Positions 35,557 to 35,699 of a DNA stretch of 64,000 bases are shown here, piece after piece. How positions within the stretch are numbered: position 1 is the first letter of the stretch; each line of letters begins with the position of its first letter. The DNA comes from a virus. Its lineage: Duplodnaviria; Caudoviricetes. The position numbers were made by a program, and so were the translations under genes. The stretch lies in the IMG/VR virus record IMGVR_UViG_3300024269_004845; one strand, 5' to 3'. The notes under the pieces were generated by a model, which was not told the DNA's origin, searched no databases, and saw only the letters and a program-made list of their open reading frames with translations.

Positions 35557-35699
35557 GGTCCCATCGACAAGTGGTCTAAGTCGTCGCCCTTTCGTTGGAT
35601 TAGTTTAAGTAAAACATTACTGCGGTAAAGATTTGAGTGCAAGTCTCATGTTCAGCACCAAAGGCGGAGTCACGGGTTCGAATCCCGTTGGGACTACCA
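35557..35699 (+). tRNA. tRNA-Glu(TTC) interrupted at 36/37 by a 67-nt tRNA-like insert
   Basis: Halves 35557-35593 and 35661-35699 join into a complete cloverleaf. Confidence 0.85.
35594..35660 (+). ncRNA. Nested mini-tRNA with truncated anticodon arm and CCA end
   Basis: GTTGGAT/GTTCAGC acceptor, GTTT/AAAC D stem, TTAC-TGCG-GTAA, TGAG-TGCAAGT-CTCA, ACCA. Confidence 0.75.

What the first reader, a model, noticed from the sequence alone, without database searches (positions are those of the whole stretch)
35557..35699. tRNA inside a tRNA: tRNA-Glu split at 36/37 by a complete CCA-ended mini-tRNA
Seen: removing 35594-35660 gives a normal tRNA-Glu(TTC) (TCGCC-CT TTC AA-GGCGG; the stem matches the intact copy at 35084 except for a G at the last position). 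The 67-nt insert has unambiguous borders and no target duplication. It folds as a tRNA: 7-bp acceptor (3 GU), D arm, a shrunken TTAC-TGCG-GTAA arm, T arm with 7-nt loop, and ACCA exactly at its 3' border. Established: bacterial tRNA introns are self-splicing group I introns, archaeal/eukaryal ones lie mostly at 37/38, and RNase P recognises acceptor plus T-arm shapes. Inference: host RNase P and 3' processing could excise the inner RNA precisely and leave two halves for ligation (a tRNA-shaped intron). Alternatively the unit may be a decoy for anticodon nucleases, or a record of a tRNA-like RNA ligated into a cleaved anticodon loop and copied back to DNA.
Basis: partly seen in the sequence, partly recalled or inferred. 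Interest (0 to 1): 0.88.

Follow-up and report, generated by a model that had tools for sequence, protein, structure and literature searches.

The report
tRNA-shaped intron inside a tRNA-Glu gene
A glutamate tRNA gene on a giant gut extrachromosomal element is split just after its anticodon by a 67-base insert shaped like a small tRNA; the gene halves stay almost unchanged between related lineages, so the interrupted gene is probably still used, by a splicing route nobody has demonstrated.

Summary
Removing 35594-35660 gives a 76-nt tRNA-Glu(UUC), and the 67-nt insert runs from G1 to ACCA of a cloverleaf. That cloverleaf reaches the Rfam tRNA threshold (29.2 bits) and is the only extra tRNA-like hit in the window.

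It is not an assembly artefact. Contigs from four other metagenome runs and three assembled related strains carry the same insert at the same site.

- **Borders:** uninterrupted tRNA-Glu genes about 90% identical to the joined halves exist in a Lak-like megaphage contig and a rumen MAG. They fix the borders and the UUC anticodon, against ARAGORN's TCA call.
- **Conservation:** between lineages, the gene halves have 1 variable site in 76. The insert has 8-11 in 67, and non-coding spacers differ by about 7%. Insert changes cluster in the stub arm and include one compensatory A-U to G-C pair. The acceptor, T arm and CCA are nearly invariant.

This fits a functional interrupted gene whose insert must keep its tRNA "top half". 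The likeliest route is excision by RNase P plus a cut after CCA, then ligation. That route is untested: no RNA data exist and no ligase is in the window.

Published remarks exist (Lak megaphage "enigmatic" introns), and this scan has reported the same kind on other DNA many times. New here are the 36/37 site, the exact G1-to-CCA insert and a plasmid-like Clostridia-associated replicon.

The parts
35557..35593 (+). Exon 1 of tRNA-Glu(UUC): acceptor 5' strand, D arm, anticodon stem 5' strand, and loop C32 U33 U34 U35 C36
   Evidence: ARAGORN on the joined halves. One variable site (D loop) across related lineages.
35594..35660 (+). 67-nt tRNA-shaped insert (mini-tRNA), running from G1 to ACCA
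   Evidence: Rfam tRNA 29.2 bits, end to end. Cloverleaf minimum-energy fold. Kept in L049, L050 and L051 and in four Logan runs. Covariance model R1 finds only these copies at 95-102 bits.
35594..35600 (+). Mini-tRNA acceptor 5' strand (GUUGGAU). The presumed RNase P site lies at 35593|35594.
   Evidence: All 7 pairs are invariant in four assembled haplotypes. The cut itself is inferred.
35603..35615 (+). Mini-tRNA D arm (GUUU-AAGUA-AAAC), without G18 G19
   Evidence: It matches the D arm of the window's tRNA-Thr(UGU) at all 16 aligned bases.
35617..35628 (+). Stub arm replacing the anticodon arm: UUAC-UGCG-GUAA. There is no 7-nt loop and no anticodon.
   Evidence: In L049, L050 and L051 it reads UUGC-UUUU-GCAA, an A-U to G-C compensatory change.
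35633..35649 (+). Mini-tRNA T arm: 4 bp plus a U-U, with loop UGCAAGU
   Evidence: The stem is invariant. Loop variants are G to U at position 55 (X13) and G to A at position 59.
35650..35660 (+). Mini-tRNA acceptor 3' strand plus discriminator A and CCA. The presumed 3' cut lies at 35660|35661.
   Evidence: Invariant in the assembled haplotypes. One U-A to U-G change in X12. The cut is inferred.
35661..35699 (+). Exon 2 of tRNA-Glu(UUC): A37 A38, anticodon stem 3' strand, T arm, acceptor 3' strand, ACCA
   Evidence: No variable site across lineages.
35345..35420 (+). Upstream tRNA-Asn(GUU). In all related lineages its CCA directly abuts G1 of the split tRNA.
35421..35556 (+). 136-nt spacer present only in the window's lineage, with borders exactly at CCA and at G1
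   Evidence: The joint 35420->35557 appears in X8, X12 and X13. The spacer is absent from L049, L050 and L051.
35084..35161 (+). Intact paralogue tRNA-Glu(UUC) number 1
   Evidence: It differs at 15 sites between lineages.
35710..35786 (+). Intact paralogue tRNA-Glu(UUC) number 3
   Evidence: It differs at 16-21 sites between lineages.
34508..34536 (+). Near-consensus promoter of the array (11 of 12 matches, extended -10). No other + strand promoter-like site scoring 10 or more of 12 lies between the first tRNA (34816) and 36037; weaker or leader-region + strand matches sit at 34556 and 34729.
34769..34799 (+). Terminator-like hairpin of the leader. It is the only terminator-like site in 34400-36200.

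Best explanation
This is a still-functional tRNA-Glu(UUC) gene carrying a tRNA-shaped intron between C36 and A37.

Proposed route:
1. The whole array is transcribed from the promoter at 34508 as one precursor.
2. RNase P recognises the insert's acceptor/T-arm stack and its ACCA, and cuts at 35593|35594, as at any pre-tRNA. This leaves exon 1 with a 3'-OH.
3. An endonuclease that cuts directly after an encoded CCA releases the mini-tRNA at 35660|35661 and leaves exon 2 with a 5'-phosphate. Candidates are an RNase Z of the Thermotoga type or an RNase E/Y-like enzyme.
4. The two halves stay paired through the acceptor and anticodon stems, as a tRNA nicked in the anticodon loop. A 3'-OH/5'-P RNA ligase (Rnl type) seals the nick.

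Shown here: the nested anatomy, its exact borders, its conservation, purifying selection on the halves, and preservation of the insert's top half and CCA. Inferred: co-transcription, both cuts, and the ligation.
For: - **Borders coincide with mature tRNA ends.** The Rfam tRNA alignment starts at 35594 and ends at the discriminator 35657, and CCA fills 35658-35660.
- **Uninterrupted homologues exist.** About 90% identical tRNA-Glu genes contain exactly the spliced junction CCCTTTC|AAGGCGG (L056, L057).
- **The insert is old and kept.** It sits at the same site with the same 67 nt in L049, L050 and L051, and in four Logan runs from different studies. No insert-less allele was seen.
- **The halves are constrained.** There is 1 variable site in 76 nt, against 8 in 67 in the insert (Fisher p = 0.010; 11/67 with the Logan variants, p = 0.001). 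Non-coding spacers diverge by 7.3% (P of at most 1 change = 0.02).
- **Insert changes avoid the processing module.** Seven of 15 sites vary in positions 22-36, against 1 of 52 elsewhere. The stub stem shows a compensatory A-U to G-C change, and 98.7% of cells remain paired.
- **The array already uses CCA|G1 junctions.** The tRNA-Met pair meets at 39229|39230, and tRNA-Asn abuts the split tRNA in all related lineages. One RNase P cut therefore makes two mature ends.
- **No internal + strand promoter or terminator** was detected between the first tRNA (34816) and 36037.
- **Precedent for a cut just after an encoded CCA:** Thermotoga maritima RNase Z and E. coli RNase E, as cited in PMC7479834.
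Against: - Nothing at the RNA level has been observed, and no RNA run holds the locus.
- No RNA ligase, Pnkp, RtcB or RNase Z family was found among 38 window ORFs scanned with Pfam. The rest of the element could not be searched.
- The 3' cut is the weak step. In Firmicutes, CCA-bearing precursors are normally trimmed by exonucleases, which cannot release exon 2.
- Two intact tRNA-Glu(UUC) genes sit in the same array, so the split copy is not needed for decoding.
- Overall the insert diverges as fast as the spacers (7/67 versus 7-13%). Five of the changes lie in one 8-nt segment and may be a single event, so the evidence for structure selection rests on few independent events.
- The insert's fold energy is not exceptional (z = -0.93).
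Confidence: 0.45

Rival explanations
1. This is a processing cassette without rejoining. RNase P and a 3' cut release the mini-tRNA, and the products that matter are the free mini-tRNA and/or a nicked, non-decoding tRNA-Glu body. Possible roles are a decoy for nucleases or enzymes that bind tRNA-Glu, a regulator, or a sponge for CCA-adding or modification enzymes.
For: The same structural facts apply as for the best explanation. Conservation of the halves fits any role that needs a tRNA-Glu body. Two intact tRNA-Glu(UUC) genes make decoding by this copy dispensable. The intact Glu, Asn and Thr copies in the array have swapped or diversified stems between lineages, while the split copy is frozen. 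That pattern would suit an arms race with tRNA-targeting factors. No ligase is in the window.
Against: The anticodon loop produced by exact removal is a perfect CUUUCAA, identical to that of uninterrupted homologues. This is unnecessary for a product that never decodes. No anticodon nuclease or defence context was identified here. The role is unspecified and untested.
Confidence: 0.25
2. The insertion is a selfish or relic event. A tRNA-derived element landed in a redundant tRNA-Glu gene, by DNA recombination or by RNA ligation into a cleaved anticodon loop followed by reverse transcription. It is merely tolerated, and the interrupted gene is dead.
For: Insert borders equal mature RNA ends, which an RNA-level origin would explain. 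A second such insert is reported in tRNA-Thr(UGU) of the same genome (scan note e1-5746130, not checked here). The gene is redundant. The insert's overall divergence is spacer-like. Array modules are gained and lost exactly at tRNA ends, as with the 136-nt indel.
Against: The halves show 1 change in 76 nt where spacers show 7-13% (p = 0.02 to 0.0003), so a dead gene is unlikely. The insert's acceptor, T arm and CCA are nearly invariant (1 of 52 sites). No other copy of this insert exists in the window, in 11 searched sources, or in the phage, viral, genome or metagenome collections, so recent mobility of this element is not seen. An RNA-level origin is compatible with present function and does not exclude the best explanation.
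Confidence: 0.12
3. The 143-nt RNA works uncut, as a composite molecule: a tRNA-Glu body whose anticodon loop carries a tRNA-like domain. It might act as a scaffold or as a ligand for a protein of the element.
For: The nested double cloverleaf is the minimum-energy fold, with the outer anticodon stem extended by three A-U pairs. Both parts are conserved.
Against: An acceptor/T-arm stack followed by ACCA is the standard substrate of bacterial RNase P (established knowledge), so the RNA is unlikely to survive uncut. The fold's z-score is weak (-1.44). No partner is known.
Confidence: 0.07
4. It is an assembly or chimera artefact, or a chance resemblance.
For: None was found.
Against: Independent contigs from at least seven data sets span both junctions. 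The Rfam match is the only sub-tRNA hit in 128 kb of searched strands, and its ends coincide with the gap in the alignment to intron-less genes.
Confidence: 0.01

Closest known systems
'Enigmatic' tRNA introns of Lak megaphages (Devoto et al. 2019, PMC6784885, main text, Fig. 4 legend and Table S6). The remark is repeated for jumbo phages in PMC13037316.
   Same: The insert sits in the anticodon loop of a tRNA gene in a tRNA array of a very large gut replicon. It contains a tRNA-like module, and the mechanism of removal is unknown. A Lak-like contig (L057/L058) even carries an uninterrupted tRNA-Glu about 90% identical to the joined halves here.
   Different: Lak-type introns are 79-114 nt and carry extra non-tRNA segments, either a 5' hairpin plus linker or a 3' tail. 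They do not end in CCA at the border. Here the insert is nothing but a mini-tRNA from G1 to CCA, it lies at 36/37, and it shares no sequence with them. The replicon shows plasmid-like genes and no phage hallmark in this window.
CCA-ended mini-tRNA inserts in anticodons of large-phage tRNAs, reported repeatedly by this scan on other DNA (for example e1-5369767, e1-5647158, e1-5665240, e1-5760607; AI notes, unpublished)
   Same: The logic is the same: the insert runs exactly from the first base of a tRNA-like acceptor helix to CCA, inside the anticodon loop.
   Different: Those are mostly 44-50-nt 'top halves' placed inside the anticodon, on evident phages, and are said to travel with RNA repair genes. 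This one is 67 nt, with a D arm and a stub arm, lies after the anticodon, and has no ligase in reach. I did not examine those loci myself.
Self-splicing group I introns in bacterial and phage tRNA anticodon loops
   Same: They occupy an anticodon-loop position in a bacterial-type tRNA gene.
   Different: Group I introns are over 200 nt with a P1-P9 core. Here the insert is 67 nt, and no Rfam intron or ribozyme family matches.
Archaeal/eukaryal protein-spliced tRNA introns (bulge-helix-bulge, endonuclease plus ligase)
   Same: The insert is a short intron near the anticodon that would need protein enzymes and a ligase.
   Different: The predicted fold has no bulge-helix-bulge motif: a 1-nt bulge at the 5' site and a 3-nt ACC bulge one pair away from the 3' site. 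The site is 36/37 rather than 37/38, and splicing endonucleases are not known in bacteria.
tRNA-like processing signals cut by RNase P and RNase Z (mascRNA from MALAT1, the mitochondrial tRNA punctuation model, T4 stable RNAs). Named from my own knowledge.
   Same: A tRNA-shaped element embedded in a longer transcript defines exact cleavage points.
   Different: Those release flanking RNAs that are not rejoined. Here the flanks are two halves of one tRNA. The Rfam mascRNA model gives only 16 bits, on a different segment.
T4 Pnkp/Rnl1 repair of anticodon-loop breaks made by PrrC. Named from my own knowledge.
   Same: The substrate is a tRNA nicked in the anticodon loop, held together by its stems and sealed by an RNA ligase.
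   Different: In T4 the break is damage with a 2',3'-cyclic phosphate and a 5'-OH, and needs end healing. Here the ends would be 3'-OH and 5'-P, made by processing enzymes.

Membership tests
tRNA (Rfam RF00005), for the 67-nt insert | End-to-end match at or above the gathering score | tested here: met
   29.2 bits against a gathering score of 29, over model positions 1-71. L049's copy scores 29.4 bits.
tRNA (decoding), for the 67-nt insert | Anticodon arm with a 5-bp stem and a 7-nt loop that presents an anticodon | tested here: not met
   The arm is a 4-bp stem with a 4-nt loop (UGCG, or UUUU in relatives). ARAGORN finds no tRNA in the insert alone.
tRNA (decoding), for the 67-nt insert | Conserved elbow nucleotides (G18 G19 and T54 Psi55 C56) | tested here: not met
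   The D loop is AAGUA without GG, and the T loop is UGCAAGU with G at position 55. Only the X13 variant has U55.
tRNA-Glu(UUC), for the joined halves | Cloverleaf with anticodon UUC, and homology to uninterrupted tRNA-Glu genes | tested here: met
   ARAGORN calls tRNA-Glu(ttc), 76 nt. The halves are 89.6-91.2% identical to L056 and L057 tRNA-Glu, with three compensatory acceptor pairs, and the alignment gap falls exactly at the insert.
Group I intron | Conserved P1-P9 core, length above about 200 nt, Rfam match | tested here: not met
   The insert is 67 nt, and no intron family matches at E up to 10.
Small self-cleaving ribozymes (hammerhead, twister, HDV-like and others) as the excision device | Match to a ribozyme family at either junction | tested here: not met
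   No ribozyme family hits 35540-35720 at E up to 10.
Bulge-helix-bulge (archaeal-type) tRNA intron | Two 3-nt bulges separated by a 4-bp helix that carry the splice sites | tested here: not met
   The minimum-energy fold shows a 1-nt bulge at the 5' site and an ACC bulge next to, but not at, the 3' site.
Lak-megaphage-type tRNA intron (Devoto 2019) | Anticodon-loop insert containing a tRNA-like module | tested here: met
Lak-megaphage-type tRNA intron (Devoto 2019) | Extra hairpin, linker or tail segments beside the tRNA-like module; 79-114 nt; no CCA at the border | tested here: not met
   The insert is wholly the mini-tRNA and ends in CCA, unlike the introns in Table S6 and in L057/L058.
Lak-megaphage-type tRNA intron (Devoto 2019) | Sequence homology to a described intron | tested here: not met
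   blastn of the insert against 50,697 phage records gives only chance-level matches.
Lak-megaphage-type tRNA intron (Devoto 2019) | The carrier is a phage | tested here: inconclusive
   The window has no PHROGs structural or packaging family. It does have type IV secretion (T4SS) coupling proteins, Tad-type ATPases, a ParM-like protein, gyrase, DnaE and DnaK. The whole element is not held.
RNase P / 3'-endonuclease / ligase-spliced 'tRNA-shaped intron' (proposed class, unpublished) | The insert runs exactly from G1 of an acceptor helix to CCA | tested here: met
RNase P / 3'-endonuclease / ligase-spliced 'tRNA-shaped intron' (proposed class, unpublished) | An RNA ligase of the 3'-OH/5'-P type is encoded by the replicon or the host | not testable with these tools
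   None was found among the window ORFs scanned. The genome is not held.
RNase P / 3'-endonuclease / ligase-spliced 'tRNA-shaped intron' (proposed class, unpublished) | A spliced tRNA and a free mini-tRNA exist as RNA | not testable with these tools
   No RNA run holds the stretch.

The most novel reading that the evidence does not exclude
Bacterial-type replicons, here a plasmid-like giant element of gut Clostridia and not only megaphages, use a protein-dependent tRNA splicing pathway in which the intron is itself a tRNA mimic. RNase P and a CCA-respecting endonuclease would excise it with single-nucleotide precision, and an RNA ligase would reseal the anticodon loop. This would be a third kind of tRNA splicing, beside group I self-splicing and the archaeal/eukaryal endonuclease pathway. 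The mini-tRNA may in addition be a product with a role of its own.
Probability: 0.35. Interest if true: 0.9.

Novelty: new variant of a known kind. Interest (0 to 1): 0.7.

Why it matters
If the halves are rejoined, this would be a tRNA splicing route not described in bacteria or their mobile elements. It would be built entirely from enzymes every cell already has (RNase P and 3' end processing) plus a ligase. It would also explain the "enigmatic" introns noted since 2019 in megaphage tRNAs.

The locus offers a compact, testable substrate: a 143-nt transcript with predicted cut sites known to the nucleotide, and natural variants that keep or change defined parts.

The contrast within one array is also notable. 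The split copy is frozen, while the intact Glu, Asn and Thr copies have swapped their stems. This hints that interruption may be linked to the conflict over tRNAs between mobile elements and host defences.

If the halves are not rejoined, the locus is still a clear case of a tRNA-shaped element being kept inside a conserved tRNA body, and its purpose would need explaining.

Tried and rejected
- **ARAGORN's intron call.** tRNA-SeC(tca) with the intron at 35/36 was rejected. Uninterrupted homologues and alignment A4 place the gap at 36/37 with anticodon UUC, and long ORFs read normally under table 11.
- **Whole genome.** It is not held. Records behind the loci are not held either, so RNA ligase, RNase Z and the second insert in tRNA-Thr could not be examined.
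- **Exact-pattern scans.** The 5' junction in viral contigs and a 22-mer from the insert in genome contigs and metagenome contigs gave no match.
- **blastn searches.** The locus and the insert against phages, and the locus against plasmids, gave only generic tRNA or chance matches.
- **T4SS coupling protein relatives.** 43 metagenome loci held no credible tRNA gene, so they were useless for comparison.
- **DnaE relatives in viral contigs.** None found.
- **Upstream 414-aa protein.** One distant homologue in an unrelated context.
- **GyrA-like relatives (61-82% identity).** They keep the gene order, but their contigs stop before the array.
- **VIT1 relatives at 83-84% identity (L053-L055).** They lie in other tRNA arrays without a tRNA-Glu or any ARAGORN intron call.
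- **Gapped pattern for other tRNA-Glu genes** with a CCA-ended insert at 36/37 in viral contigs: 31 matches, all chance.
- **Derivation of the mini-tRNA from tRNA-Thr(UGU).** Model R1 singles that gene out (34.4 bits) and the D arms are identical. Global identity (47/67) is barely above the mean of 89 tRNAs (43.8, sd 2.7). This is kept only as a weak lead.
- **RNA evidence.** No RNA holder is listed for this stretch.
- **Fold energies.** The z-scores of the insert and of the precursor are unremarkable and were not used as support.

Full report
**What is there**

The window carries a tRNA array (34816-39686; 14 ordinary tRNA genes) behind a near-consensus promoter (34508-34536) and a leader terminator (34769-34799). 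No further + strand promoter-like or terminator-like site was detected between the first tRNA (34816) and 36037.

At 35557-35699 lies a 143-nt unit.
- The outer 37 + 39 nt, once joined, are called tRNA-Glu(ttc) by ARAGORN.
- The inner 67 nt (35594-35660) are matched end to end by the Rfam tRNA model at 29.2 bits, against a gathering score of 29.
- That match starts at the first inserted base and ends at a discriminator A that is followed by CCA, the last inserted bases.
- Over the whole 64-kb window, both strands, this is the only tRNA-like match beside the 14 ordinary tRNAs.
- The insert alone folds into a cloverleaf as its minimum-energy structure, and the full unit folds as two nested cloverleaves. 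The energies are not exceptional (z = -0.93 and -1.44).

The insert is tRNA-shaped but not a decoder. Its "anticodon arm" is a 4-bp stem closed by UGCG, its D loop lacks GG, and its T loop has G at position 55. ARAGORN finds no tRNA in it.

**Borders**

From this sequence alone the borders can slide. ARAGORN's intron mode removes 67 nt two bases further left and reads anticodon TCA.

I searched for the predicted spliced junction as a 24-mer and found it uninterrupted in two places:
- a rumen MAG contig (L056);
- a 150-kb IMG/VR contig (L057).

Their tRNA-Glu genes are 89.6-91.2% identical to the joined halves, with three compensatory pairs in the acceptor stem. A multiple alignment with these and the four intact tRNA-Glu(UUC) genes of the window and L050 opens its gap exactly at 35594-35660.

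**Is it real?**

- L002, a JGI contig, is identical to the window over 21 kb.
- Logan contigs of four runs from four studies (one labelled sheep gut) span the whole unit. No contig joins across the insert.
- Three assembled relatives from other ENA samples (L049, L050, L051), found through the VIT1 gene inside the array, carry a 67-nt insert at the same place.

**What evolution says**

Window versus L050, over the array:
- Some tRNAs are nearly invariant (0-3 differences).
- Others differ by 10-21 bases, more than the spacers, with swapped stems: Glu-CUC, Thr-GGU, both intact Glu-UUC copies, one Asn, and Thr-UGU.
- Non-coding spacers differ by 7.3% overall, with a range of 4-17%.

For the split gene:
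- The halves show one variable site in 76, a D-loop base.
- The insert shows eight variable sites in 67 among assembled loci, and eleven with the Logan variants.
- Halves versus insert gives Fisher p = 0.010 (assembled loci) or 0.001 (with the Logan variants).
- The probability of at most 1 change in 76 nt at spacer rates is 0.02 to 0.0003.
- Both lineages carry the insert, so this constraint has acted on the interrupted gene.

Inside the insert:
- Seven of the 15 positions 22-36 vary, but only 1 of the other 52 does (p = 5e-5).
- The stub hairpin changed from UUAC-UGCG-GUAA to UUGC-UUUU-GCAA, a compensatory A-U to G-C pair.
- One Logan variant turns U3-A61 into U3-G61, and another restores U55.

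Caveat: five of the stub changes lie within 8 nt and may be one event. The insert's overall divergence equals that of the spacers. One relative breaks a D-stem pair. The evidence for selection on the insert's shape is therefore suggestive rather than strong. The evidence for selection on the halves is the firmer result.

**Mechanism**

The part of the insert that stays fixed is the acceptor stem, the T arm and ACCA. This is what bacterial RNase P recognises (established knowledge).

The array already relies on RNase P making two ends with one cut. The tRNA-Met pair meets at 39229|39230, and in every related lineage the CCA of tRNA-Asn abuts G1 of the split tRNA.

I therefore favour excision by RNase P at 35593|35594 and an endonucleolytic cut right after CCA at 35660|35661. 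Precedents for such a cut are Thermotoga RNase Z and E. coli RNase E, as summarised in PMC7479834. The resulting nick, with a 3'-OH and a 5'-P, would then be sealed by an Rnl-type ligase.

None of this is shown:
- No RNA run holds the locus.
- No ligase or repair enzyme appears among 38 window ORFs scanned with Pfam.
- The rest of the element cannot be searched here.

I considered and rejected three other excision devices: a bulge-helix-bulge motif (absent), a group I intron, and a small ribozyme (no Rfam match).

**The carrier**

The window has about 32% G+C. It encodes GyrB and GyrA-like proteins, DnaE, DnaK/DnaJ, two type IV secretion (T4SS) coupling-protein homologues, Tad-type ATPases and a ParM-like protein. 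No PHROGs structural or packaging family was found. Contigs of up to 297 kb carry its genes.

Its GyrA-like protein has a small clade of relatives at 61-91% identity, and then falls to about 42% identity with Lachnospiraceae ParC. Its VIT1 gene is 79% identical to a Lachnospiraceae VIT1. A Clostridia host is therefore likely.

Whether the element is a plasmid-like replicon or a huge phage is open. Other agents of this scan called it phage-like.

**Relation to what is known**

- Devoto et al. 2019 reported tRNA introns in Lak megaphages, one of which "may encode a tRNA".
- A 2026 survey repeats the remark for jumbo phages.
- Their Table S6, and the Lak-like contig I fetched (L057/L058), show longer introns (79-114 nt) with extra hairpin, linker or tail segments and no CCA at the border.
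- The insert here has no sequence relative in any collection searched.
- This scan has reported CCA-ended mini-tRNA inserts on other DNA many times, including a second one in this same genome. Those notes are leads that I did not verify.

**Verdict**

The interrupted gene is very probably functional. The splicing route is plausible but undemonstrated. This is a new variant of a barely described kind.

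Noticed in passing
window 35421-35556: A 136-nt spacer is present only in the window's lineage (also in X7). In X8, X12, X13, L049, L050 and L051 it is missing precisely from the base after the CCA of tRNA-Asn to the base before G1 of the split tRNA. 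Array modules therefore seem to be gained or lost exactly at mature tRNA ends.
   Followed up: partly
window 34816-36030 versus L050 1400-2478: The tRNA genes of the array fall into two classes between lineages. One class is nearly invariant (0-3 differences). The other differs by 10-21 bases, more than the spacers, with whole stems swapped compensatorily, for example the anticodon stem of tRNA-Asn 35345-35420. This suggests allele replacement or diversifying selection on tRNA bodies.
   Followed up: partly
window 39302-39362: A weak HDV-like ribozyme match (RF02682, 23.2 bits, E 0.51) starts at the base after tRNA-Met 39230-39301, the only tRNA of the array whose ARAGORN and Rfam calls end together (39301), i.e. 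without an encoded CCA. The placement resembles that of the theta ribozymes of gut phages (PMC10879173).
   Followed up: no
window 35162-35344: The stretch between tRNA-Glu and tRNA-Asn ends in a T-arm-like hairpin plus ...CACAACCA. It is 95% conserved in L049-L051, better than other spacers. A scan note reads it as a 171-nt CCA-ended tRNA-like RNA.
   Followed up: partly
window 36095-36973; L053 6001-6894; L055 5157-6035: A ferritin-like/VIT1 transporter gene sits inside or beside tRNA arrays in this element and in two other large elements. It is 79% identical to a Lachnospiraceae VIT1, so it looks like host-derived cargo recurring at arrays.
   Followed up: partly
L055 2078-2196 and 3424-3788; L049 4519-4959; L055 3895-4347: A related element's array region carries its own tmRNA (89.7 bits) and a drum RNA (49.3 bits). 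PDDEXK_5 nuclease-like genes are inserted within arrays of L049 and L055.
   Followed up: no
L057 4191-4349; L058 4098-4263: A 150-kb IMG/VR contig (CheckV 41% complete, 28 tRNA matches) has Lak-type introns in tRNA-Cys (85 nt) and tRNA-Thr(CGU) (93 nt). The latter holds a nested tRNA-like element scoring 38.4 bits, followed by a 3' tail.
   Followed up: partly
window 54992-58771 (- strand): The DnaE gene contains a stretch of 48% G+C (56-58 kb) in a replicon of about 32% G+C. Its Pfam finger domain is matched in two pieces, which may indicate an intein or another insertion.
   Followed up: no
window 34508-34800: A strong promoter and a 14-bp terminator hairpin precede the array. Scan notes read the 29-codon ORF between them as a leader-peptide attenuator rich in Asn, Thr and Glu codons.
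   Followed up: partly
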